Positions 12,258 to 54,916 of a DNA stretch of 64,000 bases are shown in pieces; within the stretch, counting starts at the first letter, position 1; each line of letters opens with the position of its first letter. Under the pieces are notes generated by a model. That model made no database searches, was not told the origin of the DNA, and saw only the letters and a list, made by a program, of their open reading frames with translations. The stretch is from NCBI GenBank assembly GCA_033560715.1, contig CP138194.1:283494-347493 (forward strand), given 5' to 3'. The stretch is from Mycoplasmatota bacterium. GTDB taxonomy: Bacteria > Bacillota_I > Bacilli_A > Mycoplasmatales > MT37. Made by a program: the position numbers and the translations under genes.

Positions 12258-12625
12258 TATAAAATCACACTCACTAATGAAATAATTTTTTTAAACCCGC
12301 GGTTTTTTAAATTATTAGTTACTGGACCAAAAATACGAGTTCCACGTGGATCATTATCATTTTTATTAATAATGACAGCGGCGTTTTCCGCAAAACGAAC
12401 AAACGTTCCATCGCCGTTTGAAACACGATTTTTAGTTCGAACGATCACCGCACGAACTAACGTTCCCTTCTTTAAATTCGAAGATGGAATAGCTTTTTTA
12501 ACAGTCGCACGTACAATATCACCAACGCCAGCCGGACCTTTTGGATTCGATAAATTACGAATTACCAATAATTCTTTGGCACCAGTGTTATCAGCTACTT
12601 TTAAACGTGTTTCTTGTCAAATCAT
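12257..12625 (-). CDS. rplN: 50S ribosomal protein L14
   Basis: ATG at 12623-12625 gives [24 protein letters not shown]... It is joined by TGA to fragment 12257..12568 (122 aa). Confidence 0.95.
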
Positions 12626-12626
12626 G

Positions 12627-12917: not shown

Positions 12918-12992
12918 TTTGATTTAATCTCCTTATTTTAATAATGATTATTATATTAAAATTTATTAGTGTTATTTTAACATAATTAAATT

Positions 12993-13026
12993 AAAAACAC
13001 ATAAAAAAATAACTTTTTATGTTTTT
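12993..13026 (-). terminator. Putative intrinsic terminator at the lysS stop
   Basis: The - strand RNA reads ACAUAAAAA-GUUAUU-UUUUUAUGU followed by GUUUUUAAUUU. It overlaps the lysS stop codon and precedes the rpsQ promoter-like TATAAT. Confidence 0.4.
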
Positions 13027-33621: not shown

Positions 33622-33709
33622 ATATTTAATAACTTTTATTTAAAAGAATTAAAAACAATTCACTTTATTAATCGATATCAATAAAATAATTGATTAATAA
33701 ACAAATTAA

Positions 33710-33735
33710 GCACATAAAATGTGCCTAATTTTTTT
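33710..33735. terminator. GCACAT-AAA-ATGTGC hairpin flanked by T-runs on both strands
   Basis: 6-bp GC-containing stem at 33710-33724. On the + strand it is followed by 7 T (33729-33735). On the - strand it is followed by UUAAUUUGUUUAUU. It lies between the tracrRNA candidate and the pyrG start, about 90-110 nt upstream of the pyrG ATG. Confidence 0.4.
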
Positions 33736-33737
33736 AT

Positions 33738-33862
33738 TAAAATAATTTGGGGCTTTTGGGATCCCCAACCCTACAGGTTACTACGAAATGTAGACCTTTA
33801 TCTTATTACTTTAGAAAAAAAGTTAAAACTTCTTTTCTAGTTACCGAATATAATTATATCAT
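33738..33862 (-). ncRNA. Candidate tracrRNA (anti-repeat interrupted by a hairpin)
   Basis: + strand blocks ATCTTATTAC (33800-09) and TAGTTACCGAATATAAT (33838-54) match repeat nt 1-8 and 10-25. On the - strand they are therefore complementary to + strand pre-crRNA. Downstream on the - strand are AAAGGUCUACAUUUCGUAG and a GC-rich hairpin UUGGGG..CCCCAA (33747-68) plus AUUAUUUU. Confidence 0.55.
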
Positions 33863-33909: not shown

Positions 33910-34806
33910 ATGAGTTGAAAAACAATTGTTGTTCGAATTAGTGATTATCTGTTCTTAAAAAACGGACAATTACATTTTAAACAAGAAAACCAAACCACAG
34001 CGTTTCCAATTAAAGATATTAATTGTATTATCATTGAAAAAACGAATACAAATTTATCTGTCCCTTTATTAAATGCATTAATAAAAGCTAATGTTTATGT
34101 CATTTTTTGTAATGAAAAACATGATCCAAACGGTGTTATTTTACCGTTTCATAATCATTTTCAACCACTAAAGATTTTAAATTATCAACTTGAAATGGGA
34201 AAAAACTTAAAAAAACAAATATGAACAAAATTAATTGAAACAAAGATTCAAAATCAAATTGCCGTTTGTAAAATGTTGAAAATTAATCCCGAAAACATTG
34301 AAAAACAACAAACATTATTGAAAAAATTAATTTTCAATGATCCACAAAATTATGAAGGTATTACAGCGCATTTATTTTTTAAAGCTTTATACGGTAGTAG
34401 TTTTGTTAGACACACTGATGATGGGATTAATTCCGCTTTAAATTATGGTTATAAAATTATTGTTTCAGCAATTTCTCGAACAATTGTAAAGTACGGATTA
34501 TTAAATTATTTGGGAATTCATCACGTTGGTAAAACTAATCAATTTAATTTAGCATATGATTTAATTGAACCGTTTCGACCATTAGTTGATTATTTTGTTA
34601 GTTCGATGGGTGAAGAAATTGACGATTGTTTAATTTATAATCAACGCCTAAAATTAATTAATATTTTAAATTTTAAGGTCCTAATTAAAAATCAACAACA
34701 TACTGTTATAAATGCAATCGAAATAATGATAAATCACTTTGTTCAAACAATTAAAAATAATGATTTTAATACTTTTGTTGTTCCAAAGTTAATTTTTGAA
34801 AATTAA
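33910..34806 (+). CDS. cas1: CRISPR-associated endonuclease Cas1 (type II)
   Basis: ATG at 33910 gives MSWKTIVVRISDYLFLKNGQLHFKQEN... (type II Cas1 N-terminus, W encoded by TGA). It is in frame with fragment 34273..34806 (298 aa). Followed by cas2. Confidence 0.9.
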
Positions 34807-34850
34807 AACGAGTTTTTGTTAAAATAAATTTAAGAATAGAAGATGATTCA

Positions 34851-35180
34851 ATGAATTCAAGAATTAGAATGATGCGAATTCTTTTAATGTATGATTTACC
34901 AAGTACAACTGTCAAAGCACAGAAAATTTATAATGTTTTTCACAGTTTTTTATTAAAAAATGGTTTTTATATGATTCAAGAATCAATTTATTGTTGTTTT
35001 GCCAAAAGTTATATGACAGCAAAATTAGTTATTAAAAAAGTACAAAAAAATAGTCCGAAAATTGGTGATGTTCGTTGTTTAGTTATCACGGAAAAACAAT
35101 ATCAAGAAATGCATTTTTTTGCTGGTAAACGCAGTTATCAAGAAATGCTTTTTAATCCTGATCCAATTTTAGAAATTTAA
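34851..35180 (+). CDS. cas2: CRISPR-associated endoribonuclease Cas2
   Basis: 109-aa ORF. MRILLMYDLPSTTVKAQKIYNVFHSFLLKNGFYMIQESIY matches the Cas2 ferredoxin-fold N-terminus pattern (LhhYDh...R..F...L...GF..hQ.SVY). Confidence 0.9.
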   Translation: MNSRIRMMRILLMYDLPSTTVKAQKIYNVFHSFLLKNGFYMIQESIYCCFAKSYMTAKLVIKKVQKNSPKIGDVRCLVITEKQYQEMHFFAGKRSYQEMLFNPDPILEI

Positions 35181-35185
35181 TTATT

Positions 35186-36364
35186 ATGAAAACAATTGAA
35201 ATTACTAATCTTCGCTTTGAACGGCAAAAAATTACCTTTGAAGATCGTTTGGCAATCTTAACTGGTCATAATCGATCAGGAAAAACATTAATTTTAGAAC
35301 AAATTGCTGATGCTTTAAAAGAAGGTAGTAATCATGTTTTAATTGATCAACAACCGGTTCAAAGAGGTCAGTTTCAAGTTGCTTATTTATCAAGCGAAAC
35401 ACGATTAAAAGATGAAATCAAATTAACCAAAACAAGTTCGTTTCGTAATCATTTAATTTCCAAAATTAATCATTTATTAATTAATGATCAAAATTATCAA
35501 CAACTTAGTTCGCAAATTGATCAATTAGCAAATAAAATTGAAGAATTAACTAATTTAGCATTAAATCCACACGCTAATGCTTTTACGAATCAAAATATTA
35601 AATTAAAATTTGATACTTCAAAATTTAGTTTGGAAAAAATTGTTGATAAATTATTAAACATAGATTTGATTAATCAAATTAATCAAAATTCACTCGATGA
35701 AAAAAGTTTTAATAGCTTTTTATTAAGAATGGTCGTTTTTAATGTTTTATTGGCAGGTTTAAATTTTACCGATTTACAAAGACCGATTGTGATTTTAATT
35801 GATGATCCAGCAGCGTTTGCAAATTATCAAACTCTTACTGAATTTGCGTTCGAATTAAGAAAGTTATTAAAATTTGAAAATCTTTACATTTGTATTGCAA
35901 CTAGTAATGCTGATTTTGTACAGCAAATGAATTGTAAAATTAGTGCAATTCATTACATTAAAAATCGTCAAATTATTGATTTTAAAAATTATCAAACTAT
36001 TATTGAAAAAGCTATTACCATTTTTAGTTTTTGAAAAAGTACTGACCATCAAAATTGACAGGCATATCAAATTGCATTGAAACCAATTCTTGAAATTGCA
36101 GATTTAGAACGCGAATTTACATTGTTTTGACAAAGTGAATTTTTAAATTGATTTAAAATGTTATTTGCTAATCAAATTACCTTTATTAATGAAAGTGAAT
36201 TAATTAAATTTGATTCGGCTAGTGAAAAATTTAATTTAATTTCACGCTCAAATTATAAAAATCAAATTATATTATTTTGTTTTGCAAAAGCGTTTGAAAT
36301 TAAAACGGTTTTTAGTGAAAAAAATCAACAAAAATATCAAAAAATTAACTTTTTATGAAGTTAG
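35186..36364 (+). CDS. csn2: Csn2-position protein, 392 aa, P-loop NTPase with intact Walker A and B
   Basis: Fragments 35186..36034 and 36158..36358 are in one frame joined by TGA, with TAG at 36362-64. It is the fourth gene after cas1-cas2 and directly before the leader, which is the II-A csn2 slot. Walker A is GHNRSGKT (aa 27-34) and Walker B is IVILIDD (aa 201-207). Confidence 0.7.
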
Positions 36365-36498: not shown

Positions 36499-36527
36499 AC
36501 TTTTTTGGCATGTGTTTTGTTATAATG

Positions 36528-39500: not shown

Positions 39501-42500
39501 CGTCTTATTCAGTTACCAAATTTAATAGAATAAATACAAAATTAAAAATGAAGTTAAAGAAAAAAAAGTCTTATTCAGTTACCAAATTTAATAGAATAAA
39601 TACAACTTTTTGAACTTGAAAACGGGAATGTAGGTCTTATTCAGTTACCAAATTTAATAGAATAAATACAAAATAATAAATTTAAAGAATTATTAGAAAG
39701 TCTTATTCAGTTACCAAATTTAATAGAATAAATACTTGTTAAGGGAGTAAATTAAAATAATGGGTGGTCTTATTCAGTTACCAAATTTAATAGAATAAAT
39801 ACACATAAAAAGTCGCCAGTCTAGACAATGGGGTCTTATTCAGTTACCAAATTTAATAGAATAAATACAATGTAATTATGGAGATTACCCAGCATGTTGT
39901 CTTATTCAGTTACCAAATTTAATAGAATAAATACCGTTTGTTTGTTTCTCTGTATTGTTGATTAGTCTTATTCAGTTACCAAATTTAATAGAATAAATAC
40001 AATTGCACCATAAGTATCATCATAATTTACGTCTTATTCAGTTACCAAATTTAATAGAATAAATACTTGACGTTAATTGTGAAAAATGTAACCAATGTCT
40101 TATTCAGTTACCAAATTTAATAGAATAAATACCGATTATTGCGTTAAATGCGGAGCGTGTCCGTCTTATTCAGTTACCAAATTTAATAGAATAAATACTT
40201 GTCGGTGCACCTTCAATTCTTCCTTTTGTCTTATTCAGTTACCAAATTTAATAGAATAAATACCAGTATCATTTAGCGCTTGCTTAGTTAATGGTCTTAT
40301 TCAGTTACCAAATTTAATAGAATAAATACTTTCAATTCACGCAACGAACCAAAAGAAGAGTCTTATTCAGTTACCAAATTTAATAGAATAAATACTCTCT
40401 AATTGTTTTCTAAATTCCATCTCGGGTCTTATTCAGTTACCAAATTTAATAGAATAAATACATTTCAGGGATGTAGTAAAGAATACTTAATGTCTTATTC
40501 AGTTACCAAATTTAATAGAATAAATACTTAACATTGAAGAAGCTAACTCGTCTAATGGTCTTATTCAGTTACCAAATTTAATAGAATAAATACTTTCCTC
40601 CTTCTTACAACAATAATCGCCGTGTCTTATTCAGTTACCAAATTTAATAGAATAAATACATGATGAAGTGTTGTTAAAATATGGTTTCAGTCTTATTCAG
40701 TTACCAAATTTAATAGAATAAATACTTAAATAACAATAATCAACCGCAAGCAGCAAGTCTTATTCAGTTACCAAATTTAATAGAATAAATACAAAAGAAG
40801 TGAGAGCTACATAGATAAAATAGTCTTATTCAGTTACCAAATTTAATAGAATAAATACCAAAACACCCCCTAACGCCTCTCGCCCGCCGTCTTATTCAGT
40901 TACCAAATTTAATAGAATAAATACTTTGCGACAATGAAGAAGAACTTAAGGCGGGTCTTATTCAGTTACCAAATTTAATAGAATAAATACTTTGAGTTGG
41001 GTGTTTAGTAATAGAAGGGTGTCTTATTCAGTTACCAAATTTAATAGAATAAATACTTTGCGATAACAACGAACAATTAACGGCGGGTCTTATTCAGTTA
41101 CCAAATTTAATAGAATAAATACTATTCTAACCCCCCCGTCCCCCTTAACATAGTCTTATTCAGTTACCAAATTTAATAGAATAAATACTCTAAACATCGA
41201 GACGTGAACATATAACACTGTCTTATTCAGTTACCAAATTTAATAGAATAAATACCGTTAAAGTATTTATTACCACCAGCTAATAGTCTTATTCAGTTAC
41301 CAAATTTAATAGAATAAATACAGCGAACAAAATAATTAAGGAAACTGTAGAGTCTTATTCAGTTACCAAATTTAATAGAATAAATACGTATTCAGTGATT
41401 CATTGATTATCTAAAAAGTCTTATTCAGTTACCAAATTTAATAGAATAAATACGCTTTGTTTTTTTTGATCGGAGCAATTTTAGTCTTATTCAGTTACCA
41501 AATTTAATAGAATAAATACAATAATATACCATAATAAAACTTCTTTATCGTCTTATTCAGTTACCAAATTTAATAGAATAAATACTCTAAGTTAATTATT
41601 CCGGCCGGGTAAGTTGTCTTATTCAGTTACCAAATTTAATAGAATAAATACGTAATTAACTTTTTTAGCAAATTTTCCGATGTCTTATTCAGTTACCAAA
41701 TTTAATAGAATAAATACAAAAATTCTGCATCGTTATTTTGAGTTGTCGTCTTATTCAGTTACCAAATTTAATAGAATAAATACTTTTAACATTACCAAAC
41801 ATAAACTGGACAAGTCTTATTCAGTTACCAAATTTAATAGAATAAATACTACCTGATGGTAATACAAAATTAGATGTTTGTCTTATTCAGTTACCAAATT
41901 TAATAGAATAAATACAAAATTCGATAAAACAGGAGATGTTAGCTAGTCTTATTCAGTTACCAAATTTAATAGAATAAATACAAAGCGCTTGGTCTTCAAA
42001 GTCCTGATACTGTCTTATTCAGTTACCAAATTTAATAGAATAAATACAAAATCTAATGGGATATATAATTTTTGATAAGGTCTTATTCAGTTACCAAATT
42101 TAATAGAATAAATACGATGATTATATAAATGAACTGGTTCCGCATGTCTTATTCAGTTACCAAATTTAATAGAATAAATACCCTCCGTCTAAATTATAAG
42201 TCATTCCAATAGTCTTATTCAGTTACCAAATTTAATAGAATAAATACGAAAGCAAATAGTGATTACACAACTCATATCGTCTTATTCAGTTACCAAATTT
42301 AATAGAATAAATACCCTTAACCACCATTTTAGTCATATAGCTCAGTCTTATTCAGTTACCAAATTTAATAGAATAAATACAAACATTAACCGATTGCGAC
42401 CTGTTATCAGGTCTTATTCAGTTACCAAATTTAATAGAATAAATACTTTATAAAGAAATTGAAAAAATTAAAAAAGGTCTTATTCAGTTACCAAATTTAA

Positions 42501-45500
42501 TAGAATAAATACCAGTCGTTTTAGAGATAAAAAGTACATCGTGTCTTATTCAGTTACCAAATTTAATAGAATAAATACTAAACTACTCCGTTAGTAAAGA
42601 TGTTTTAAGGTCTTATTCAGTTACCAAATTTAATAGAATAAATACTTTAGAATATTTAATTACTAATAAAATACTGTCTTATTCAGTTACCAAATTTAAT
42701 AGAATAAATACTTGGGAAAATAAAACTCGCATTTACTTATGGTCTTATTCAGTTACCAAATTTAATAGAATAAATACTTTCCACTTTCTCACATGATTGG
42801 GTTATAAGGTCTTATTCAGTTACCAAATTTAATAGAATAAATACTTAAAAAAATGAAAATGGTGAAAAAATAAAGTCTTATTCAGTTACCAAATTTAATA
42901 GAATAAATACTGTAAAAGAATACTACGATACACCATTCCTGTCTTATTCAGTTACCAAATTTAATAGAATAAATACAACAAAAAAAGGATGAATATGTCA
43001 CTTTTAGTCTTATTCAGTTACCAAATTTAATAGAATAAATACGCCGACGAGAGACGCCACGCTCAGGACTGGGTCTTATTCAGTTACCAAATTTAATAGA
43101 ATAAATACACGCTTAACGAGCAAGTAATTGGTTACCAAGTCTTATTCAGTTACCAAATTTAATAGAATAAATACCAAGGAAACACTGGACCAACTGGAAT
43201 AGCGGGTCTTATTCAGTTACCAAATTTAATAGAATAAATACAAAAGATATTAACTAGTGAAGAATGAGACAAGTCTTATTCAGTTACCAAATTTAATAGA
43301 ATAAATACTGAAGTTTCTAAACCAGTATTTAATAACACGTCTTATTCAGTTACCAAATTTAATAGAATAAATACTTTCTAAAAGTAATATATTTATTGCT
43401 GATAGTCTTATTCAGTTACCAAATTTAATAGAATAAATACCATTTTTGAATTTTCTAAATCTAATTCTTTGTCTTATTCAGTTACCAAATTTAATAGAAT
43501 AAATACCATCTTTACTAACGCCTTAGTTTAACGATTGTCTTATTCAGTTACCAAATTTAATAGAATAAATACGACCTTTATCGGGAGGATTAGGATCATG
43601 AGGTCTTATTCAGTTACCAAATTTAATAGAATAAATACTAATTAGTAGCTTGATTACTAATTTGGAGTGTCTTATTCAGTTACCAAATTTAATAGAATAA
43701 ATACGCTTTGGATCTTTAATGTTTGAATACCCGAGTCTTATTCAGTTACCAAATTTAATAGAATAAATACCAATATAAAAGATATCAACATTAGAAAGTT
43801 GTCTTATTCAGTTACCAAATTTAATAGAATAAATACTAATTAACATTTTATTACTATCATAAAAGAGTCTTATTCAGTTACCAAATTTAATAGAATAAAT
43901 ACGTTGGAAGTTGCTCCACAGGAGACGAAATGGTCTTATTCAGTTACCAAATTTAATAGAATAAATACAAAATGACAAACCGCTTGACGCTAATAATGGT
44001 CTTATTCAGTTACCAAATTTAATAGAATAAATACCCAATATTCATTTCTTCGAGTTTGAACTGTGTCTTATTCAGTTACCAAATTTAATAGAATAAATAC
44101 GGCGTTAATTTTTTATATATACATATGGAAGTCTTATTCAGTTACCAAATTTAATAGAATAAATACTTAATTCTAACCCATGAGCACCAAAAACAGGTCT
44201 TATTCAGTTACCAAATTTAATAGAATAAATACACGACATTGCTTATTCGCGACCAATAACATGTCTTATTCAGTTACCAAATTTAATAGAATAAATACTG
44301 TTGCTCCTGTTTGACGGCATTCGCAATATGTCTTATTCAGTTACCAAATTTAATAGAATAAATACTTGCGATAACAACGAACAATTAACGGCGGAGTCTT
44401 ATTCAGTTACCAAATTTAATAGAATAAATACCAGTTGGTCCAGTTGGTCCAGTGTTTCCTTGTCTTATTCAGTTACCAAATTTAATAGAATAAATACTTT
44501 CTAAAAGTAATATATTTATTGCTGATAGTCTTATTCAGTTACCAAATTTAATAGAATAAATACCTTTTTTCTGCCGCTTCAATTTTTTGTTCTGTCTTAT
44601 TCAGTTACCAAATTTAATAGAATAAATACACTTATTTTGTTAATCACTTTGTTTATGTTGTCTTATTCAGTTACCAAATTTAATAGAATAAATACTTTTA
44701 TCTCTTTGTGAATTCGTAAATTCACGTCTTATTCAGTTACCAAATTTAATAGAATAAATACAATGATGAAAGAAAGAATGAGATAAATATAGTCTTATTC
44801 AGTTACCAAATTTAATAGAATAAATACTTTAACTTTAATATTAAAAATGGTTTTATGGTCTTATTCAGTTACCAAATTTAATAGAATAAATACTAATAAA
44901 ACAATCAATATTGAACTGGTCACGTCTTATTCAGTTACCAAATTTAATAGAATAAATACTTAATAATTTTTTATATATTTAATATCGCAGTCTTATTCAG
45001 TTACCAAATTTAATAGAATAAATACAACGCCTTAATGAACCATACACGAATTATTGTCTTATTCAGTTACCAAATTTAATAGAATAAATACTTGTCTCAT
45101 CAAGTTTTAAAACTTTTACCAGTCTTATTCAGTTACCAAATTTAATAGAATAAATACATTTAATAGCGTTTGTTATTCGTGTTGCGTGTCTTATTCAGTT
45201 ACCAAATTTAATAGAATAAATACATAGAGTGCGTGGAAATAGTCATTAAAAGGGTCTTATTCAGTTACCAAATTTAATAGAATAAATACATAACATTAAA
45301 TTAAATGTTGTTTGAATTAGTCTTATTCAGTTACCAAATTTAATAGAATAAATACCAAAATTTACTAAAATCTATTCATCAACAAGTCTTATTCAGTTAC
45401 CAAATTTAATAGAATAAATACCAAAAATTCTAAATTTGAAAACAAATATTGGTCTTATTCAGTTACCAAATTTAATAGAATAAATACTTGTTGCTACATT

Positions 45501-48500
45501 TACTAATTATAATGATAGTCTTATTCAGTTACCAAATTTAATAGAATAAATACCATTGGGGAACTATATACCAAGAAAAAGTAGTCTTATTCAGTTACCA
45601 AATTTAATAGAATAAATACTTTTAGTTCCTTGAACAAATAATTGAACTCGTCTTATTCAGTTACCAAATTTAATAGAATAAATACAGGCGTTTGTTCGTT
45701 TAGATAATGATAATTGTCTTATTCAGTTACCAAATTTAATAGAATAAATACTTTAGCTCAAGCCGTTAAATCACCGTGTTTGTCTTATTCAGTTACCAAA
45801 TTTAATAGAATAAATACATTGTTTGTTCTCAAAATTTATTAGTTTCAGTCTTATTCAGTTACCAAATTTAATAGAATAAATACACCATATTAAATTTAAA
45901 AATGCATATTTGGGTCTTATTCAGTTACCAAATTTAATAGAATAAATACTTAATTATAATAATTTTCATATAAATAAATGTCTTATTCAGTTACCAAATT
46001 TAATAGAATAAATACGAATATCGCCAGTGTCTAATCGCTCTACAAGTCTTATTCAGTTACCAAATTTAATAGAATAAATACATATTATAGCTAACATCAA
46101 CTTTTTTTATAGTCTTATTCAGTTACCAAATTTAATAGAATAAATACATTAGTTTTCAGTTCTTTTAGATAAACTCAGTCTTATTCAGTTACCAAATTTA
46201 ATAGAATAAATACTTTTTATTTAATGAATATCCACATTCACTGGTCTTATTCAGTTACCAAATTTAATAGAATAAATACAATACAAATTCAGTATAAATA
46301 CAAATTGAAGTCTTATTCAGTTACCAAATTTAATAGAATAAATACTGCAAACAAATTTTAGTTGTTAATGTTAAAGTCTTATTCAGTTACCAAATTTAAT
46401 AGAATAAATACAGGTAAAGATAATGGTTAATTTTGTGCGTCGTCTTATTCAGTTACCAAATTTAATAGAATAAATACTTAAACCATATATTAAACAAGCA
46501 GCACCAAGTCTTATTCAGTTACCAAATTTAATAGAATAAATACATAATAATAATAATAATAGTAAAAATTATTGGAGTCTTATTCAGTTACCAAATTTAA
46601 TAGAATAAATACTGATTCCTGTCGTGTTATTTGAAACTCCAAGTCTTATTCAGTTACCAAATTTAATAGAATAAATACTGGTCCGCTCAAATTGTCGCCG
46701 CAATTTGTGTCTTATTCAGTTACCAAATTTAATAGAATAAATACCAAAATATACCCCACCAAAACGTAATTGGTGTCTTATTCAGTTACCAAATTTAATA
46801 GAATAAATACGTATCGTGTCCCACTCACAGCGTCTATTTCGTCTTATTCAGTTACCAAATTTAATAGAATAAATACTTTCTTTTAATACTGGTTGTTCGT
46901 TTTGCAGTCTTATTCAGTTACCAAATTTAATAGAATAAATACTGGAAAACAAAAAAGCAAATAAAATAATTGGTCTTATTCAGTTACCAAATTTAATAGA
47001 ATAAATACATAGATAGCGTGGAAATAAGCCTTAAAGGGGTCTTATTCAGTTACCAAATTTAATAGAATAAATACATAATTATCAAAGCACAGACAGAGAA
47101 TGTAGTCTTATTCAGTTACCAAATTTAATAGAATAAATACATAGCGGTTAATCCAACCAACAAACGAGCCGTCTTATTCAGTTACCAAATTTAATAGAAT
47201 AAATACATGCTTTTATTGTTTTGTGCGGTGGGAGAGGTCTTATTCAGTTACCAAATTTAATAGAATAAATACTAAAAAAACCAGCCTGGACATTTCAAAG
47301 TAGTCTTATTCAGTTACCAAATTTAATAGAATAAATACTTAATTGATTTTTTGATTCAAAAAGAAGGGGTCTTATTCAGTTACCAAATTTAATAGAATAA
47401 ATACGTAATTAACTTTTTTTGCAAATTTTCCTAAGTCTTATTCAGTTACCAAATTTAATAGAATAAATACCTTCTTTTAATGCTTCTTCGATTAATTCGT
47501 GTCTTATTCAGTTACCAAATTTAATAGAATAAATACTCGCTCGTCTCTTTCAATTGCTCCACTGTTGTCTTATTCAGTTACCAAATTTAATAGAATAAAT
47601 ACTTAAAGTGAATCATATATTCACTAATATTAGTCTTATTCAGTTACCAAATTTAATAGAATAAATACAACTGGTTAAATTACCCCAGAACCCCCTTTGT
47701 CTTATTCAGTTACCAAATTTAATAGAATAAATACTTAAATATAGTAATGTAATTGATTTAGAAAGTCTTATTCAGTTACCAAATTTAATAGAATAAATAC
47801 GAATATCTCCCGTATCTAATCTTTCGACAAGGTCTTATTCAGTTACCAAATTTAATAGAATAAATACTAGTAAAATATTAAGTAAAGCGTGAAGCAAGTC
47901 TTATTCAGTTACCAAATTTAATAGAATAAATACTCTCCTAATACAGCTCACATTGTTAGATGTCTTATTCAGTTACCAAATTTAATAGAATAAATACAAT
48001 ATTCGTTTGTTCCAAAAACAACAGGCTGTCTTATTCAGTTACCAAATTTAATAGAATAAATACATAAAGTCTTTCATAGTTTTTATCTCCTTTGTCTTAT
48101 TCAGTTACCAAATTTAATAGAATAAATACGAATATCTCCCGTATCTAATCTTTCGACTAGTCTTATTCAGTTACCAAATTTAATAGAATAAATACCAAAT
48201 TTTGTCTTTTGAAGTGAAATATACAGTCTTATTCAGTTACCAAATTTAATAGAATAAATACTCCATTTATTAAATCAGTCGAACACTGATAGTCTTATTC
48301 AGTTACCAAATTTAATAGAATAAATACAAGTTTGAATAATCAAGATTAAACGAACAAGTCTTATTCAGTTACCAAATTTAATAGAATAAATACCAGCTGC
48401 GGAAATAGTCGAGTGCGTCAATTGTCTTATTCAGTTACCAAATTTAATAGAATAAATACTTCTAATTCAAGGTTTAACTCCTTTACTGAGTCTTATTCAG

Positions 48501-49778
48501 TTACCAAATTTAATAGAATAAATACACCTTAAAAAAGCAAACGAAGCAAAAAGTGTCTTATTCAGTTACCAAATTTAATAGAATAAATACATTTTGGCAT
48601 CTAACAACATCGTCAAAATGGTCTTATTCAGTTACCAAATTTAATAGAATAAATACATTATTACAACCGCTTTAATCAATCATTAGGTCTTATTCAGTTA
48701 CCAAATTTAATAGAATAAATACGAAAAACAGCAACGAAACAAACGAAATTGCGTCTTATTCAGTTACCAAATTTAATAGAATAAATACAAAAAATATTAA
48801 CTAGTGAAGAATGAGATGGTCTTATTCAGTTACCAAATTTAATAGAATAAATACGAGTTTATAACCGCTTGACAGTCCGCCAAAGTCTTATTCAGTTACC
48901 AAATTTAATAGAATAAATACTATTTTAGTATCAAATTGAAGTCCGACGGAGTCTTATTCAGTTACCAAATTTAATAGAATAAATACTGTTTGCGGACAAG
49001 TTTGTTAATTACTTAGGTCTTATTCAGTTACCAAATTTAATAGAATAAATACTCGAATTACTCGAAGAACTAAGTCCTTATCGTCTTATTCAGTTACCAA
49101 ATTTAATAGAATAAATACCGCTAAAAGTCGCCAGTCTAGATAAGTAGGGTCTTATTCAGTTACCAAATTTAATAGAATAAATACTTTTTAGCAGGTTGTG
49201 CTGTTCGTTTTGTTGTCTTATTCAGTTACCAAATTTAATAGAATAAATACAGAAGGTATATTACGACCTTCTTTTAATGTGTCTTATTCAGTTACCAAAT
49301 TTAATAGAATAAATACGAATTAAAACTTAAACAATTAAAATTAGAGGTCTTATTCAGTTACCAAATTTAATAGAATAAATACAAGCAACTGAAATTTTTA
49401 TGGCCCGTGGTGGTCTTATTCAGTTACCAAATTTAATAGAATAAATACACTAAATTAAGCAAGTTAATCGGCGTTAGTCGTCTTATTCAGTTACCAAATT
49501 TAATAGAATAAATACAACCAAATTATCCTTTACCAAAACATATATGTCTTATTCAGTTACCAAATTTAATAGAATAAATACGAAATTCTTCTGCTTTAGT
49601 GGGTTCAACAAGTCTTATTCAGTTACCAAATTTAATAGAATAAATACATTTAAATAAAAAGTCATACGGACATGTTAGTCTTATTCAGTTACCAAATTTA
49701 ATAGAATAAATACTATCAGTTGCTATTTCTACTTCGTCTTGTAGTCTTATTCAGTTACCAAATTTAATAAATAAATAC
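36528..49778 (+). CRISPR. Type II-A CRISPR array, about 201 repeats of 36 nt and about 200 spacers
   Basis: The repeat is GTCTTATTCAGTTACCAAATTTAATAGAATAAATAC. The first copy is at 36528-36563. The period is 66 nt (spacers 29-33 nt, mostly 30). Every repeat I read is identical except the last (49744-49778), which lacks the G of AATAGAAT. (49744-36528)/66 = 200.2. Polarity is set by the csn2-side leader and the degenerate distal repeat. Confidence 0.97.
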
Positions 49779-49797
49779 TTTAATATAATTTATTTCG

Positions 49798-50958
49798 TTA
49801 TCTGGAAAAAATTATCACCATTATTATTACTACTACTACAATGTAAAAAAAGTTTTGTATGACAACTTTGTTTTTTCTTGTTTTGTGTTTTTTGTTATAA
49901 CACTCTTTACAAAAAAGAGTATTGGTTAATGGTCTTATTCCAAATTTTAATAATTCGCTTTTTGGAAATGTATTAAAACATTCGTTGCATTTTCCTGTTC
50001 TTAATTTTAAGCGTTTTTGTCCTTTAGATTCTAAAATATTAATTAAAACTTCTTGTCGTTGTGATTGTAAATTTATTTCATATTTAATTGTTTGTATCAT
50101 TTTTAATTTTTCTGTTAATTGATCTTTGGTGATTGGTTTCAATTTATCTAACTGTTCTTCCATTTGTTTAACTTTGATCTTTGAATTGTTTAATTTTTTG
50201 GTGAAAAATGGTATTGTTTTTGAAATAATATTACTACAATATCGTTCATATATGTTGTGTTTATTATATTCTGTTGTTAATACTTTACTATCTTGCATAT
50301 TCATTCAATTATCAAAGTCTTTTATTTGTCAATAAATTCATTCGTTCATTACTTCGTTGTTTTTTAAAGCGTTAATAATTGTTTCTTTTCTCTGTTGTGA
50401 TTTTTTTATTTTTTGTTTTTCTACTTTCTTTATTAAAAGTTCGTCTTTTGAATAACGAATATATCTCATATATTTGAATTCATAATTGAATATTCCATTA
50501 AATCCTTGCCTTTCAGAGTTGTATTTGGTTATATATGTTTGTTCTTTTTCTTCAATTGTGAAAATATCTAAATTTTTATAATTAGGAATAAATTCTAAAA
50601 TTTCAAACTTAACATTTTCCAAACTTAAATTAAACTCTATTAATTTCATAAATAATTTTTGATAAAAAGCATAATTAGCACTAACCGAATTGAATTTAAT
50701 AAAATTAATTAAATAATTTGTAAAATTTTTATATTCGCCCGTATCTTTAATCAAACGTTTATCGTTATTTAATGTCGCATTAATTAATGTTTTATGTTTG
50801 CTTAATCTAGCATAAATATTAACACTTATACCAATATACGATTGTTGATTTTGTGTTTTGGGATTGGTTATGAAAATTCTATAAATTCCGCTGGATTTTA
50901 ATTTGGTCTTTGTATCTTTATCTAAATTATGTAATTCAATTAAATTAAATGTATTCAT
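49798..50958 (-). CDS. I-TevI-like GIY-YIG homing endonuclease with C-terminal CxxC..CxxC zinc ribbon and hydrophobic tail
   Basis: ORF-track fragments 50338..50958 and 49798..50304 are in one frame joined by three TGA codons (386 aa). GIY at aa 24-26, YIG at aa 41-43, and ARLSKH. FEILEFIPNYKNLDIFTIEEKEQTYITKYNSERQGFNGI resembles the I-TevI catalytic-core end. Also has CNEC..x19..CKEC. Confidence 0.8.
49932..49955 (+). repeat. Decayed CRISPR repeat beyond the trailer, inside the GIY-YIG ORF
   Basis: GTCTTATTC-CAAATTTTAATA matches GTCTTATTC[AGTTAC]CAAATTT-AATA, that is 20 ordered matches with a 6-nt deletion and a 1-nt insertion. The reading is confirmed by ORF-track protein 49922..50122 (..NGLIPNFNN..). 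Confidence 0.6.
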
Positions 50959-51097
50959 TTTTTGATTTTTCTTTTTCTGTAAAACTAATTTTAATTTTAT
51001 GTTTAAAAAGTGAAAAAATAATATTTCATGAATTAATTGCTAAAAAAAATTAAATATTACCATAAACATACTTTAAAAAGTTAATGAAATTAGGTAA

Positions 51098-51126
51098 TAA
51101 TTGCATTATTAAATTGCTGAATTTAA
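51098..51126 (-). repeat. Weak repeat-like segment in inverted orientation at the cas9 stop
   Basis: The - strand reads GATTAAATTCAG-CAATTTAATAATGCAAT against repeat ..TTATTCAGTTACCAAATTTAATAGAAT. Matches are ATTCAG plus ATTTAATA. The sequence is AT-rich, so this could be chance. Confidence 0.3.
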
Positions 51127-51127
51127 T

Positions 51128-54100
51128 CTAGATAACTTTACCTAATAAATCGACCTCTATTAATGATCATTTATTTTTGAAAAGATTAGAAACGCTATCA
51201 ACAGAATTATTAAAATTAAAAATTTTTTGTGTTTTGTCAGTCGATTTTGTAAGAGAATTAACTGATAAGTAAGCTTTTTTTTCATCTTTTCTGGAAAAAA
51301 AGCATTTCACAATATATTTGCCGTTTTTTTTAAGATTTTTATTATAAATTTTATTGTCGTAGTATTTAATTAATTTATTATGAAGTAATATTTTGGAATA
51401 ATCTTGAAATAAATTTTTGTTTTTTTTGGCATCATAAATAGAAATTCATTCATATTGATTTTTTTGTTGATTGCTGGAATCTAATTTTTGTAAAGGTGTT
51501 TTTAAGCCATAAAAACGTTTAATTTCAATAATATTACCAACTTTACCATCAACATTACCTGATGTTATAAATGGTTTAGATTTATTTTTTGGATCTTTTC
51601 AATTACAAAACTCAATTATTCAATTATTAAAATAATCATTACTAAAATAAATGTTATTTATTTGGTTTTTGGCATCTGTGTAAGTAATTTTATTATTTCG
51701 CAATCATAAGCGAAATAGTTTATTTTTTGATTTTTCTAAAATAGTTTTTTTTGGATTCGGTAATCCATTCAAAACAAAACCTAAATTTTCACTACTTGAA
51801 ATTTGACCACGGACTTTGTAACGCACCATTCGTGAAATGTGTGGATAATGCAAATCAATATTAGTAGTATCTAAATCTTTGGTTGCAATTTTTCATTCTT
51901 CTTCATTTAAAACATTAACATATTTTGGTAATTTACGACTCCCATTACAGTTTTGACATGCTAAATTTAGAATTTTTTTAGTTTCGGTATCAAAACACTT
52001 ACAATCAAGAATTTCTAATTCGACTGGAATACGCTTTTCTAATTGGTTTTGAAAATCATCAATGTATAAATTATTAACAAATTGATTTTTCCGATCAGCT
52101 AAATAAATTCTTTCCATGTATTCGTTAACATTGTAAAAACGTTTTTTTTGATCGTTTTTCGAAGCTGTTTTTAACGTTTTAATTTTATTTTTAATACTTT
52201 CCATAAACGCATTTTTATTTGCTAAAGCATTTGTTAATTTAGTTGGATTTCCTTCTGATTCAAATCGGTCAATTGCGGTTTTTAAATCTTTTAATTTAAT
52301 TAAATCAACTGCTAATTCAATATCCATTTTCTTTTTAAATTGACATAAAATACTTGCATCAATTGCATGATGGAATGGAGAAATATCACGTACTTTTTGA
52401 TCTAATCCTCAAGCAGAAGACGCTAATCATTTACGACGTAAACGTGATATCACTTGACCAACAACCGCAAAAACATTCGTTTTGATTTGGTGATTTTTAA
52501 ATTCTGATAATAAATAATTGTGAATGTATTTTGAAATGTAACGAGTGTCATTTAAATTACGACTAGCAAAGCCTTCGACTGCTTCTTCGACCGTTTTTGC
52601 TAATAAATAATTCGTTTTCGTTTTACCTAAATAATTTTCTAATTTATGAATTCGCATTGTAAATGTTTTTCAATTATTTTTTAAATATTGATACGGAATT
52701 TGTTGACCTTTTTGCTGATTTTCTTCAGTTAAAACCAAAACTTTATTATTTCGACTATCATCAGCACTTCAACTACGAGGAATAATATGATCGATTTCAA
52801 CCATTTTATCGACTGGATTAATATCTTTTAAATCAATTGTTTTTCCAGAATAAATGCATTGTTTGTTTTGTTGTTCTCAAAGTAAATAAGCTAAAATCGT
52901 TTTTTGATTTTGAGGAATATTGTTTTCTGCAAGTTTTTGAATTATTGCAATTTTTTTCTTTAAGTTTTTATCTTGTGCTTGTTCAATTTTATTACGATCT
53001 TTGGCTGATTTATAAATATCACGTCCAACTTCAACAGCAATGTTTTCAAATTGAGTGTATTTTTTATGTAATGCTTTTAAAATTAGTCGGGTTTGATTAA
53101 TTGCTCGAAATACAACTGGATTTGATGTCATTTCTAAATCAGTAAATTTAGCAAATAGTTTTTTTGAATTGCTATTTTTTTTAAATCGGGTTTGAATAAC
53201 TTCGTCTTGTTGTTTAACTTTTTCAGCTTGAAAATCAGCAAAATTAATTCCTTTTAAATACGCTTGAATGGCTTCTTTCATAAATTGGAAAGATACATTG
53301 GCAGGAGAAGTGACTAACTTTGGTGATAAAAATTGATTCATTGTTTTTGCATCAAATTTAATTTGAAATTTATTTAATAAATTTTCAATTGCTTTTTTAC
53401 GACGATGCGGCGTTATTCAACGACTAGTAAATGATCCAATTTGAGAAATTAAATTCTTTTCTCATTGATCAATGTTTTTTTCATTAATAGTAATTTTAGT
53501 TAAAAAGGGTTTTAAAGTTGAAGTTTCTCAACATGTTTTAAAAAAACTTGGGCGTTTTAATTCTAAACCACTTGATTTTTCACTTTGTCAAATTTTAATT
53601 TTTTTTGAATCGAGCAAATCTTTGTTACCATGAATTTTTCAAGCTGCACTTGCTTGAATGGCAATTTGAATTAACTTAATTGCTGCACGACGATCTTTTC
53701 AATCACTAGTTAACATTTGTTGTAAAACAGATTGTTTTTCAGTTGGAGTTAAAATTAATTTATGATTAGCTAAAATATTTCAAATCTTTGATAATTCATT
53801 AACATAATAGAAAACAGTAAATAAAATTGAAGCTTTCGTTCCACGATTTTCGGTTGGATAAAAATGACATTTTCCAGTCATATCTCAAAAAATACCAAAA
53901 TTTGAACAGTGTTTGTTTTTGCATTTGTGAAGTTGATTTTGATATGAATCAGGTGAATCAATCATTACTTTAGTACAATCATTACATTTCGCTCCCATTT
54001 CAAAATCACGACTTTGAAAAATAATTTTAATGATTTTTTCGCAATTTTCATTTGTTAATTCTTTCGGATAATATTGTTTTTGTTTTGATAAAATTGTTTT

Positions 54101-54916
54101 TGCTTCGTTTTGATAATCTTGGCGATCAAATAAATGACGAAAATTAATTCGTTTTGATAATTCATCACGTTGTTTTTTATCAATAACACTATTAACATCA
54201 ATATATTTTTTATATTGATCAGATTTAGATTTTTTATAAACTAATTTTGAACTATTTTTTGTAAATAAAATTCGGGTTGTTTTTGATGCTGATAAATGAA
54301 ATTGTGAATCTTGAATAACTGCTTTTGCAATTGATTGGTATTTTTTAATTAATTCCGAAGCTTTATTAGCTGAATCAGTTAATTTGGTTGTTTTCGCTTT
54401 TGTTGTTTTATCGTCTTTGCTTTGATTTTCATCATTTTCCAAACTAAACTTATCAGCATAACCACGTTTTTTGGCATAATTAATTAAAACGACATACAAT
54501 TCGTCTTTACTTAATTTATAATCTAATCCCTTTGCTTTTAAAACATACGGATTAAAATAACCGGATTCAGTTGTTCATTGATTGTTTTGAAACACAATTT
54601 TATTAGTTACTTTAAATTGGGTTTGAAAATTATCAATAAACGCTTGTTTATCAAATAAATTAATTTGATTAAGATGGCGTTTTAACATTTCTAAACGATG
54701 GAAACGTCGACGAATTAAACGTCGCGTTGAACGAAATTCACGGCGTTTAGTTGCTAAAGAAGTTTTTGTTTTACTTTCTTCAGCCACATCAAATAAACGC
54801 ACACCAAAATCATGCAAAGTGTGTTTGCCGGTTGTAACATCTTCGGCCATTACTGCTCAACCAACCGAGCTAATTCCTAGATCTAATCCAAGATAATATT
54901 TTAAATTTTTTGTCAT
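51128..54916 (-). CDS. cas9: CRISPR-associated endonuclease Cas9 (type II-A), 1262 aa
   Basis: AAAGAGG SD then ATG at 54914-16: [22 protein letters not shown] (RuvC-I). Fragments 54575..54850, 53885..54499, 52877..53341, 52427..52657 and 51893..52327 share one frame. HNH is [20 protein letters not shown], followed by NDTRYISKY and HHAIDASI (RuvC-III). I translated every codon from 51892 to the TAG at 51128-30 and found no TAA/TAG. Confidence 0.92.

What the first reader, a model, noticed from the sequence alone, without database searches (positions are those of the whole stretch)
49798..50958. I-TevI-like GIY-YIG homing-endonuclease gene wedged between the array trailer and cas9
With TGA=Trp, the two ORF-track pieces fuse into a 386-aa protein. 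It has an N-terminal GIY-YIG catalytic domain (SGIYRIF..x13..SYIGIS, ARLSKH). The segment FEILEFIPNYKNLDIFTIEEKEQTYITKYNSERQGFNGI parallels the end of the I-TevI core. A K/E-rich linker follows, then a CNEC-x19-CKEC zinc ribbon and a terminal run FFYIVVVVIIMVIIF. Free-standing GIY-YIG endonucleases are selfish mobile genes typical of phages. This one stops 20 nt from the last CRISPR repeat. The sequence between its two CxxC pairs is encoded across a decayed CRISPR repeat (49932-55). Three readings are possible. The element may have inserted into the distal array. It may mark the breakpoint of the rearrangement that separated cas9. Or it may have been domesticated next to cas9. A nuclease homing to a CRISPR trailer would be new.
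Basis: partly seen in the sequence, partly recalled or inferred. Interest (0 to 1): 0.7.

Follow-up and report, generated by a model that had tools for sequence, protein, structure and literature searches.

The report
Mobile GIY-YIG nuclease gene beside CRISPR array
A real, intact I-TevI-like nuclease gene sits between cas9 and the far end of a 201-repeat CRISPR array in a mycoplasma-like genome; it is missing at this spot from a 98%-identical sister strain, relatives of it sit at CRISPR array ends in two other genomes and in a small phage, and the supposed "decayed CRISPR repeat" inside it is a chance resemblance.

Summary
With TGA=Trp, 49798-50958 (-) is one 386-aa ORF. It has an I-TevI-type GIY-YIG domain (Y26, Y41, R51, H55, E139, N154; AlphaFold model best matches I-TevI 1LN0). 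A helical linker, a CxxC-x22-CxxC zinc ribbon and a hydrophobic C-terminal helix follow. The ORF ends 19 nt from the last repeat of a 201-repeat type II-A array.

It belongs to a tiny family restricted to Mollicutes (19 hits among 1.8 billion proteins). One member is in a 12-kb phi29/P1-like phage. A 98%-identical sister strain (L009) lacks the gene here: its cas9 stop abuts the terminal repeat. Its Cas9 C-terminal 220 aa are only 30% identical, and no spacer is shared. One L009 spacer matches a family member (P0002) at 29/30 nt.

I read X as strain-variable, phage- or MGE-derived homing-endonuclease-type cargo. It probably arrived by recombination that also swapped the Cas9 PAM-interacting domain.

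The "decayed repeat" is not significant and encodes a strongly conserved peptide. The cas9/array inversion is shared by the X-less strain.

One thing is unexpected. Three family members (window, G2, L007) abut type II-A array ends, in different orientations. That leaves open a real association with CRISPR arrays.

The parts
49798..50958 (-). ORF X: 386-aa GIY-YIG endonuclease gene (code 4), stop TAA at 49798-49800
   Evidence: Ortholog of 388 aa on L001. dN/dS 0.49.
50491..50892 (-). GIY-YIG catalytic domain (aa 23-156) with a helical insert at about aa 56-115. Catalytic or structural residues are Y26, Y41, R51, H55, E139, N154.
   Evidence: Pfam 18.1 bits alone, but 14/20 family members hit. 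Family profile vs PDB gives I-TevI at E 1e-3. Invariant columns. AF2 pLDDT 87.7 and Foldseek 1LN0 probability 1.00.
50305..50340 (-). Three in-frame TGA (Trp) codons (aa 207, 210, 218) inside the family-conserved W-rich motif NEWIYWQIKDFDNW. These split the ORF under table 11.
49900..49989 (-). CxxC-x22-CxxC zinc ribbon (aa 324-353)
   Evidence: TIGR04104 E 2e-4, below cut-off. Conserved in the L001 ortholog with omega 0.135. A similar CxxC...CxxC tail is in P0017.
49807..49866 (-). C-terminal hydrophobic helix (aa 365-384), a predicted membrane anchor
   Evidence: Kyte-Doolittle 19-residue mean of 2.93 in X and 3.36 in L001. Residues change but stay hydrophobic.
49932..49955 (+). The 'decayed repeat': a chance repeat-like stretch that encodes ELLKFGIRP on the minus strand
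49744..49778 (+). Terminal, 1-nt-deleted CRISPR repeat (trailer end), 19 nt from the X stop codon
36527..49778 (+). Type II-A CRISPR array: 201 repeats of GTCTTATTCAGTTACCAAATTTAATAGAATAAATAC. The leader promoter TGTTATAAT abuts the first repeat.
   Evidence: The same promoter-repeat junction is seen in G2 and L007.
50959..51127 (.). 169-nt spacer between cas9 and X, 14.8% GC
51128..51780 (-). Strain-variable 3' end of cas9 (last ~220 aa, the PAM-interacting region). About 50-60% nt and 30% aa identity to L009, against 98% upstream.
51128..54916 (-). cas9 (1262 aa, code 4)
33910..36364 (+). cas1 (33910-34806), cas2 (34851-35180) and a csn2-like P-loop gene (35186-36364), upstream of the leader
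33700..33860 (-). Structured RNA between cas1 and pyrG with promoter, 24-nt anti-repeat-like 5' end and terminator. It is the best tracrRNA candidate, or alternatively a pyrG leader.

Best explanation
X is an intact, strain-variable, free-standing GIY-YIG endonuclease gene of the I-TevI type. It belongs to a small family carried by Mollicutes and their phages.

Inferred mechanism, by analogy with I-TevI and the T4 Seg proteins:
- The N-terminal GIY-YIG domain cuts DNA.
- A long helical linker tethers it to a C-terminal zinc ribbon that helps position it on a specific site.
- Unlike I-TevI, the protein ends in a hydrophobic helix that probably anchors it to the membrane.

The gene is not part of the CRISPR-Cas machinery. 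It is cargo in a ~2-kb variable segment (49779-51780). That segment was exchanged by recombination, with one crossover inside cas9 just upstream of the PAM-interacting domain and the other in or beyond the array. As a result the nuclease gene and an alternative Cas9 C-terminus travel together, which resembles the co-conversion seen with homing endonuclease genes.

Shown:
- ORF, fold and catalytic residues
- family membership
- phage-borne relative
- presence/absence polymorphism
- cas9 breakpoint
- spacer hit

Inferred:
- nuclease activity
- target site
- mode of transfer
- membrane anchoring
For: - One ORF under code 4, with all six I-TevI catalytic or structural residues.
- AF2 model pLDDT 87.7; the top PDB match is I-TevI 1LN0, probability 1.00, TM 0.75.
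- Only 19 relatives among 1.84 billion representatives, all with Mollicute-style code-4 genes.
- P0006 lies in a 12.3-kb linear contig encoding a protein-primed-type DNA polymerase, terminase and tail protein.
- L009 is 97.85% identical over 12.2 kb up to cas9 nt ~3100. Identity then falls to ~50-60%, and the cas9 stop is followed within ~10 nt by the terminal repeat. tblastn finds no family member in the ~24 kb of L009 that was fetched.
- Cas9 aa 1-1040 are 98.5% identical to L009's, but aa 1041-1262 only 30.5%.
- X (22.0% GC) and the swapped cas9 end (21.6%) are both AT-richer than the conserved flank (27%).
- 0 of 149 exact-flanked L009 spacers (150 in the fuzzy parse) are shared with the window's ~200.
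- An L009 spacer matches the P0002 gene at 29/30 nt, E 1e-9.
- Other family members sit in unrelated contexts: between an ABC transporter gene and lepA in Hepatoplasma, in an RM/helicase island, and next to TPR-like repeat genes.
- dN/dS of 0.49 against a 67%-identical ortholog shows the gene is maintained, but loosely, as is typical of selfish nucleases.
Against: - No cleavage or mobility data exist, and no target site is identified.
- A C-terminal membrane anchor is not a feature of known homing endonucleases.
- Three of about eight informative chromosomal contexts abut a type II-A array (window trailer, G2 trailer, L007 leader). That is more than random insertion into a 400-600-gene genome predicts and hints at a specific link.
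- Some relatives are embedded in defence-gene modules (L003).
- The second recombination breakpoint was not seen. Loss of X from L009 rather than gain by the window strain is therefore equally possible.
- The rest of the L009 genome was not examined, so X may exist elsewhere in it.
Confidence: 0.6

Rival explanations
1. X is a domesticated defence or CRISPR-accessory nuclease. In this reading the GIY-YIG family has been recruited as a membrane-tethered DNase that works in defence islands, here alongside type II-A CRISPR-Cas. It might degrade incoming DNA at the membrane or supply prespacer substrates.
For: - Three family members directly flank type II-A arrays in three genomes.
- L003 carries two paralogs, each followed by a type III Res-like helicase and a PD-Lambda-5_A-like protein.
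- The Hepatoplasma copy is two genes from GmrSD.
- X aa 17-57 weakly hits the candidate defence family PDC-S14, E 2.2e-6.
- The zinc ribbon is under strong purifying selection and the hydrophobic tail is conserved.
- Precedent: phage ICP1 carries the homing-endonuclease-derived nuclease Odn in place of its CRISPR-Cas system (PMC8263062; seen here only as a title and abstract fragment, with the details from my own knowledge).
Against: - X is absent from this locus in the 98%-identical strain, whose array is equally large and has fully turned over. CRISPR function therefore does not need X.
- Its position and orientation relative to the array differ in all three cases: 3' end at the trailer, 5' end at the trailer, and beyond the leader.
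- The G2 copy is frameshifted.
- A family member is itself a CRISPR target.
- Overall dN/dS is 0.49.
Confidence: 0.22
2. X is an array-seeking selfish or anti-CRISPR nuclease. In this reading the family recognises sequence at the edges of type II-A arrays (repeat plus flank) or exploits breaks there, so it homes to array ends. Phage-borne copies might attack host arrays.
For: - The gene lies within 19-27 nt of the terminal repeat in two genomes, and 263 nt beyond the leader-proximal repeat in a third.
- The three copies are only 36-41% identical and differently oriented, which suggests independent arrivals.
- There is a phage-borne relative.
- The exact 10-mer GGTCTTATTC, shared with the repeat, is unique outside the array.
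Against: - The window keeps 200 perfect repeats beside an apparently intact nuclease gene, so the repeat itself is unlikely to be the target.
- No repeat-like sequence flanks the phage, Hepatoplasma, L003 or L005 copies.
- Array ends are among the few permissive sites in such compact genomes, which may explain the clustering.
- The sample is small: three of about eight contexts, two of them from syntenic genomes.
Confidence: 0.12
3. The 3' part of the ORF, or the repeat-like stretch in it, is really a CRISPR element: either a decayed array unit or the tracrRNA anti-repeat. The long ORF would then be partly read-through.
For: - The minus-strand RNA of 49900-49962 can pair with the repeat at -14.1 kcal/mol. 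That is close to the -15.4 of the best tracrRNA candidate.
- It lies 154 nt from the array end.
Against: - The score is within the range of shuffles.
- The zinc ribbon and tail are conserved as protein in L001, with omega 0.135 and dS 1.23.
- A zinc-ribbon tail also occurs in the distant paralog P0017.
- The fold z-score is only -2.1, with no terminator.
- L009 has the same repeat and a 98.5%-identical Cas9 body but lacks this sequence.
Confidence: 0.03

Closest known systems
I-TevI (phage T4 td intron GIY-YIG homing endonuclease; PDB 1LN0/1MK0)
   Same: - It is the best sequence-profile and structural match for the catalytic domain.
- The motif order is the same: GIY, YIG, R, H, then FE.ILE..., E, and N in G(F/Y)N.
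- The logic is modular: catalytic domain, long linker, zinc-binding element.
   Different: - X has a ~50-residue helical insert in the catalytic domain.
- Its linker is much longer and looks like a coiled coil.
- No detectable helix-turn-helix DNA-binding domain was found.
- It has a C-terminal membrane-type helix.
- It is free-standing rather than intron-encoded.
- Identity is only 19%.
Free-standing GIY-YIG homing endonucleases of T-even phages (SegA-G)
   Same: - They are free-standing genes between conserved genes.
- They show presence/absence polymorphism between close relatives.
- They are accompanied by replacement (co-conversion) of adjacent gene sequence. Here that is the cas9 3' end (the general behaviour of Seg proteins is from established knowledge, and the review PMC2988022 was listed but not read).
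   Different: - The copy here is chromosomal, in a Mollicute, and next to a CRISPR array.
- No sequence similarity to Seg proteins was detected in the INPHARED phages.
- Homing has not been demonstrated.
Odn of Vibrio phage ICP1 (T5orf172/GIY-YIG-related nuclease that replaces the phage's CRISPR-Cas locus; PMC8263062)
   Same: It is a homing-endonuclease-type nuclease occupying a CRISPR-Cas locus, and so a precedent for domestication of such genes for defence. I saw only the title and start of the abstract; the details are from my own knowledge.
   Different: - Odn substitutes for CRISPR-Cas in a phage, whereas X coexists with a complete type II-A system in a bacterium.
- No homology between them was tested or shown.
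GIY-YIG genes of unknown function already noted in reduced Mollicute genomes (Hepatoplasmataceae, PMC10928387; gene U2 of Ca. Oceanoplasma callogorgiae, PMC11535214)
   Same: - The Hepatoplasma crinochetorum protein CRX36916.1, annotated 'GIY-YIG catalytic domain protein', is in the cluster of family member P0007.
- These papers report up to three such genes per genome and high expression of one.
   Different: - Neither paper links these genes to CRISPR arrays or phages, or describes the zinc-ribbon/membrane tail.
- Whether U2 belongs to this family was not tested.

Membership tests
GIY-YIG nuclease superfamily (I-TevI-like catalytic domain, Pfam PF01541) | GIY and YIG motifs about 10-15 residues apart on adjacent beta-strands | tested here: met
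   GIY 24-26 and YIG 41-43. Y26, Y41 and G43 are invariant in the family. The model has strands at 24-31 and 38-45.
GIY-YIG nuclease superfamily (I-TevI-like catalytic domain, Pfam PF01541) | Conserved Arg (I-TevI R27), catalytic Glu (E75) and Asn (N90) | tested here: met
   R51/H55 align to R27/H31, E139 to E75 and N154 to N90 in the profile-PDB alignment. E139 and N154 are invariant.
GIY-YIG nuclease superfamily (I-TevI-like catalytic domain, Pfam PF01541) | Score above Pfam's gathering threshold | tested here: not met
   X alone scores 18.1 bits against 22.6. At family level, 14/20 members match at E<=0.1, the best at 2.2e-6.
GIY-YIG nuclease superfamily (I-TevI-like catalytic domain, Pfam PF01541) | GIY-YIG alpha/beta fold | tested here: met
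   AF2 pLDDT 87.7, pTM 0.83. Foldseek top hit is 1LN0 I-TevI, probability 1.00, TM(target) 0.75, rmsd 3.5 A.
GIY-YIG nuclease superfamily (I-TevI-like catalytic domain, Pfam PF01541) | Mg-dependent DNA cleavage | not testable with these tools
   Needs biochemistry.
Free-standing homing endonuclease gene (mobile) | Presence/absence polymorphism at one locus between close relatives | tested here: met
   The window has X. L009 (97.85% nt identity over 12.2 kb) has the cas9 stop followed directly by the terminal repeat.
Free-standing homing endonuclease gene (mobile) | Relatives carried by phages or other mobile elements | tested here: met
   P0006 is in phage contig L008. The P0002 gene is the target of an L009 spacer. 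There was no hit in INPHARED, PLSDB or IMG/VR.
Free-standing homing endonuclease gene (mobile) | Co-conversion of flanking sequence with the gene | tested here: inconclusive
   A sharp identity drop inside cas9 (98% to ~55%) is contiguous with X. This is compatible with co-conversion, but also with ordinary recombination or with loss in L009.
Free-standing homing endonuclease gene (mobile) | Site-specific cleavage of the gene-less allele near the insertion site | not testable with these tools
   The candidate substrate is the L009 cas9-3'/terminal-repeat junction.
CRISPR-associated (cas or accessory) gene | Consistent co-occurrence and conserved position with cas genes or arrays across genomes | tested here: inconclusive
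   Adjacent to arrays in the window, G2 (L013) and L007, but at different ends and in different orientations. Absent next to the arrays of L009 and L011/L012. Elsewhere in L003, L005, L006 and L008.
TIGR04104 cxxc_20_cxxc zinc-finger/membrane family | Score above NCBIfam cut-off | tested here: not met
   21.7 bits against 45, E 2e-4, over aa 323-383. This is a resemblance in layout only (zinc ribbon followed by a hydrophobic helix).
CRISPR repeat relic or tracrRNA anti-repeat (for 49932-49955) | Similarity or complementarity to the repeat beyond chance, and conservation as nucleic acid | tested here: not met
   16.0 bits, reached by 26% of shuffles. There are synonymous differences in the ortholog and omega is 0.135. 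The sequence is absent from L009, which has the same repeat and Cas9 body.

The most novel reading that the evidence does not exclude
A family of GIY-YIG nucleases restricted to Mollicutes and their phages is specifically drawn to the ends of type II-A CRISPR arrays. It may recognise array-edge sequence or exploit breaks and recombination at repeats. Its movements would then drive exchange of neighbouring CRISPR-Cas modules, here the Cas9 PAM-interacting domain and array segments. In that case selfish nucleases would reshuffle CRISPR specificity between strains, while CRISPR in turn targets them.
Probability: 0.15. Interest if true: 0.8.

Novelty: new variant of a known kind. Interest (0 to 1): 0.55.

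Why it matters
Free-standing GIY-YIG homing endonucleases are well known in phages, so the gene class is not new. Four things are new here.

- The family was previously undescribed and is tiny. Some members add a zinc ribbon and a membrane-type tail to an I-TevI-like core.
- Members recur at the ends of type II-A arrays in three reduced Mollicute genomes.
- In two near-identical strains, presence of the nuclease gene coincides with a complete swap of the Cas9 PAM-interacting domain and a complete turnover of spacers.
- The strain lacking the gene carries a spacer against a relative of it.

Together these give a concrete, testable case of conflict and gene flow between selfish nucleases and CRISPR-Cas. 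They also suggest a natural route by which Cas9 PAM specificity is exchanged. If the association is only due to permissive insertion sites, the finding is an ordinary accessory gene.

Tried and rejected
- Word-indexed protein search with the full 386 aa found nothing. It probably failed because of the low-complexity linker. The exhaustive search with the N-terminal 206 aa succeeded.
- Single-sequence AlphaFold was useless (pLDDT 47). The run using the family alignment worked.
- phmmer of X against PDB found nothing. PHROGs gave nothing meaningful.
- The search for related loci with Cas9 failed, probably because every chosen peptide pattern contained Trp, which this genome encodes as TGA.
- Later scans of GTDB genomes, IMG/VR and JGI metagenomes with family alignments or members found no relatives.
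- tblastn against INPHARED phages and PLSDB plasmids found nothing.
- Rfam found nothing at gathering threshold or in E-value mode. There are no tRNAs on L001 or L002.
- I considered that the repeat-like stretch in X is the tracrRNA anti-repeat and rejected it (see the rival explanations).
- I considered that a nexus-like GGTTAGTCCG downstream of the L001 ortholog marks a tracrRNA. This could not be supported.
- I tried to derive the window, L009 and G2 layouts from one another by single inversions. The positions of cas1, cas2, csn2 and the array fit two successive inversions, but the orientations of the nuclease genes do not. The copies in the window and G2 therefore look like separate arrivals.
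- The tracrRNA location remains unresolved. The cas1-pyrG RNA has a promoter, a terminator, z = -6 and a repeat-matched 5' end in two genomes, but it may instead be a pyrG leader.
- The 264-aa and 103-aa ORFs that occupy the equivalent cas9-to-trailer position in L011 have no Pfam hit. The 264-aa ORF, the only one of the two scanned, has no PHROG hit either.
Full report
**Setting.** The window is AT-rich (22-33% GC), and long genes only appear when TGA is read as Trp. It is therefore a Mollicute-type genome. The locus reads as follows:
- rpoC, rpoB and pyrG on the minus strand (pyrG 32032-33621)
- cas1 (33910-34806, +), cas2 (34851-35180, +) and a 392-aa P-loop csn2-like gene (35186-36364, +)
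- a CRISPR array of 201 repeats of 36 nt with period 66 (36527-49778)
- ORF X (49798-50958, -), cas9 (51128-54916, -; 1262 aa) and argS (-)

An extended -10 promoter (TGTTATAAT) abuts the first repeat at 36.5 kb, and the last repeat at 49744-49778 has a 1-nt deletion. The array is therefore transcribed on the plus strand, and X sits at its trailer, convergent with it.

**The observation.**
- Under table 4, 49798-50958 (-) is one 386-aa ORF with three in-frame TGA codons (aa 207, 210, 218) and no TAA/TAG.
- Two spacings need correcting. GIY to YIG is 14 residues, and the two CxxC pairs are 22 residues apart.
- The stop codon is 19 nt from the terminal repeat.

**Is it a GIY-YIG nuclease?** X alone is below Pfam's threshold (18.1 against 22.6 bits) and has no direct PDB hit. 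An exhaustive HMMER search of 1.84 billion representative proteins with the N-terminal 206 aa found only 19 relatives.
- In the aligned family, Y26, Y41, G43, S45, K101, E139, I143, G152 and N154 are invariant. G24, R27, S40, H55 and E119 are nearly so.
- 14 of 20 members hit Pfam GIY-YIG, the best at 2.2e-6.
- The family profile's best PDB match is the I-TevI catalytic domain. The alignment pairs Y26/Y41/R51/H55/E139/N154 with I-TevI Y6/Y17/R27/H31/E75/N90.
- With the family alignment, AlphaFold gives pLDDT 87.7 and pTM 0.83. Foldseek's top hit is I-TevI 1LN0 at probability 1.00 and TM 0.75. The GIY-YIG restriction enzyme PD-T4-3 follows far behind.

The catalytic-domain assignment and the comparison with I-TevI are sound.

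**The rest of the protein.** A 1364-nt Logan contig (L001) carries a full-length 388-aa ortholog. It is 75% identical over the N-terminal domain and about 67% overall.
- It keeps the W-rich motif, the helical linker, the CxxC...CxxC ribbon and a hydrophobic tail.
- Codon-level comparison gives dN/dS of 0.49 overall. The zinc ribbon gives 0.135 at dS 1.23.
- The tail changes residues but stays strongly hydrophobic, with Kyte-Doolittle 19-mer means of 2.9 and 3.4.
- A distant paralog (P0017) also ends in CxxC-x24-CxxC.
- The weak TIGR04104 hit reflects the same layout of a zinc ribbon followed by a hydrophobic helix.

The C-terminal part is therefore genuine protein. A membrane-type anchor is unusual for a homing endonuclease.

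**The 'decayed repeat'.** GGTCTTATTC followed by CCAAATTTTAATA at 49931-49952 does resemble the repeat with 6 nt missing, and the 10-mer is unique outside the array. The evidence against a real relic is stronger.
- A composition-aware local alignment score (16.0 bits) is reached by 26% of dinucleotide shuffles of X and by 20% of real tiles of the window (a simpler scoring is).
- The stretch encodes ELLKFGIRP within the fully conserved ELLKFGIRPLTNTLFCKECY block, and the ortholog shows synonymous differences there.
- As an RNA it folds weakly (z = -2.1) and has no terminator.
- L009 lacks this sequence even though it has the same repeat and a 98.5%-identical Cas9 body.

I treat the resemblance as chance.

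A better tracrRNA candidate lies between cas1 and pyrG (33860 to about 33700, minus strand).
- It has a TGATATAAT promoter, a 24-nt anti-repeat-like 5' end, strong structure (z = -6.0) and a terminator.
- The homologous region in G2 carries a 5' end matched to its own, different repeat. Cognate duplexes give -15.4 and -18.5 kcal/mol, against -5.0 and -8.4 for the crossed pairs.
- It could instead be a pyrG leader, so I leave this unresolved.

**Where relatives live.**
- P0006 is inside a 12.3-kb linear contig with a DNA polymerase (PHROG 3e-65), terminase and tail protein. This is a phi29/P1-like phage.
- P0023 is the Hepatoplasma crinochetorum 'GIY-YIG catalytic domain protein'. It lies between an ABC transporter gene and lepA, two genes from GmrSD.
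- L003 has two 70%-identical paralogs. Each precedes a type III Res-like helicase and a PD-Lambda-5_A-like protein, near methyltransferases and an IS1595 fragment.
- P0011 follows large genes made of repeated 102-nt units.
- P0003 (L007, GCA_947330515.1) lies 263 nt beyond the leader-proximal repeat of a type II-A array of about 45 repeats whose other end abuts cas9-cas1.
- In the 399-kb genome G2 (L010 and L013 are from one contig), a frameshifted copy (P0018 + P0004) starts 27 nt after the last repeat of an array of about 178 repeats. It is followed by an inverted cas1 and pyrG.

Counting the window, three of about eight informative chromosomal contexts are immediately next to a type II-A array. 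They differ in end or orientation, and their identities to X are only about 36-41%. This is more than uniform random insertion predicts. However, array ends are among the few permissive sites in such compact genomes, the sample is small, and two of the genomes are syntenic.

**The sister strain.** Cas9 homolog P0028 (86% identity) lies on L009, a circular 420,644-bp contig.
- L009:953-13141 matches window 64000-51776 at 97.85% identity over 12.2 kb.
- Along cas9, identity is 97-100% up to nt 3000 and 91% in nt 3001-3150. It is then about 50-60% to the end.
- At protein level, aa 1-1040 are 98.5% identical and aa 1041-1262 are 30.5% identical. That is no closer than to Cas9s of other species.
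- In L009 the cas9 stop is followed after about 10 nt by a degenerate terminal repeat and then the array. No family member is detected by code-4 tblastn in the fetched ~24 kb.
- The repeats are identical in the two strains, but none of the 149-150 L009 spacers seen is shared with the window's ~200.
- X (22.0% GC), the swapped cas9 end (21.6%) and the spacer between them (14.8%) are AT-richer than the conserved cas9 body (27.3%).

The unit of difference is thus a ~2-kb segment (49779-51780) plus the array content, with a sharp crossover inside cas9 just before the PAM-interacting region. I cannot tell gain in the window strain from loss in L009, and the second breakpoint is outside the data I could fetch.

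**A spacer against the family.** One L009 spacer (ATATTATTAAATGAATATATAGCATTACAA, L009:19872) matches L004:995-1024 at 29/30 nt. This lies inside the P0002 gene, at aa 286-295. P0002 is the second-closest relative of X, at 46% identity (E 1e-9). No spacer matches X itself. The strain lacking X has therefore met, and been immunised against, an element carrying a relative of X.

**The rearrangement.**
- G2 has argS-cas9-(solitary inverted repeat)-cas2-csn2-array in one direction.
- The window and L009 have the tracr?-cas1-cas2-csn2-array block inverted relative to cas9.
- According to Ipoutcha et al. (PMC6882279), the usual Mollicute order is cas9, tracrRNA, cas1, cas2, array, and inversions occur in several species.
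- Because X-less L009 shares the inverted layout, X does not mark or explain that inversion.
- X does coincide with a more recent recombination breakpoint in cas9.

**Interpretation.** The best reading (about 0.6) is a phage- or MGE-derived, homing-endonuclease-type selfish gene. It resides in the hypervariable cas9-trailer junction and is exchanged together with the Cas9 C-terminal domain.

The rivals are these:
- a domesticated, membrane-tethered defence or CRISPR-accessory nuclease (about 0.22)
- an array-seeking or anti-CRISPR nuclease (about 0.12)
- a CRISPR relic or tracrRNA element with read-through translation (about 0.03)

The literature I could search notes unexplained GIY-YIG genes in Hepatoplasmataceae and in Ca. 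Oceanoplasma. It does not report any link to CRISPR arrays, and I found no report of a homing endonuclease targeting array ends.

**Verdict.** This is a real gene of a known kind in a new, rare family, with two unusual features: a membrane tail, and recurrent adjacency to type II-A arrays. It comes with a striking strain comparison. I score interest at 0.55.

Noticed in passing
window 36527-49778: The type II-A array has 201 repeats and 200 spacers. Its relatives are similarly large: at least 151 repeats in L009 and about 178 in G2. A 2024 paper cites 107 spacers as the second-highest count among Mollicutes, so these arrays appear to exceed the published Mollicute counts cited there.
   Followed up: partly
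window 51128-51780 (cas9 aa ~1041-1262) vs L009:13141-13684: Two strains with 98% identical flanks and a 98.5%-identical Cas9 body have C-terminal (PAM-interacting) regions only 30% identical. This is a natural domain swap with a sharp breakpoint.
   Followed up: yes
L009:19872-19901 and L004:995-1024: A spacer of the X-less sister strain matches the coding sequence of family member P0002 at 29/30 nt.
   Followed up: yes
window 33700-33860 (-); L013:11548-11841 (+): A highly structured RNA (z = -6) lies between cas1 and pyrG, with promoter and terminator. Its 5' end is complementary to the local CRISPR repeat in both genomes. It could be the tracrRNA or a pyrG leader/attenuator.
   Followed up: partly
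L010:13722-13757: In G2 a solitary inverted copy of the repeat (31/36 nt, duplex -47 kcal/mol) sits 16 nt after the cas9 stop, where cas1 would normally be. cas1 itself is inverted, beyond the array. This suggests repeat-mediated inversions, or that this copy is the tracrRNA anti-repeat.
   Followed up: partly
L003:5139-9907 and 10001-15663: A three-gene module is duplicated: GIY-YIG family member, then a type III Res-like helicase with a C-terminal hydrophobic tail, then a ~635-aa PD-Lambda-5_A-like protein. It sits beside methyltransferases and an IS1595 fragment and may be an undescribed defence system.
   Followed up: partly
L011:13681-14776 (also L012): In a more distant genome with the same convergent cas9/array layout, two unknown ORFs (264 aa and 103 aa, no Pfam hit; the 264-aa ORF also has no PHROG hit) occupy the cas9-to-trailer position that X occupies in the window.
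   Followed up: partly
window 35186-36364; L010:14155-15336; L011:21224-22450: The gene in the csn2 position is a ~392-408-aa protein with only weak ABC/RecF-type P-loop hits and no Csn2 family hit. It is conserved across these loci.
   Followed up: no
L008 (12.3-kb linear contig, ENA ERZ25067557): This is an apparently complete phi29/P1-like Mollicute phage that uses code 4. It has no relatives in INPHARED or IMG/VR by the searches run.
   Followed up: partly
L001:1252-1364: Downstream of the X ortholog is a less AT-rich stretch containing GGTTAGTCCG, reminiscent of a tracrRNA nexus. There is no Rfam or tRNA hit and no similarity to the other loci.
   Followed up: partly
window 49779-50958 (+ strand): No terminator-like site lies between the array trailer and X. 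Pre-crRNA read-through would therefore be antisense to the 3' end of X.
   Followed up: no
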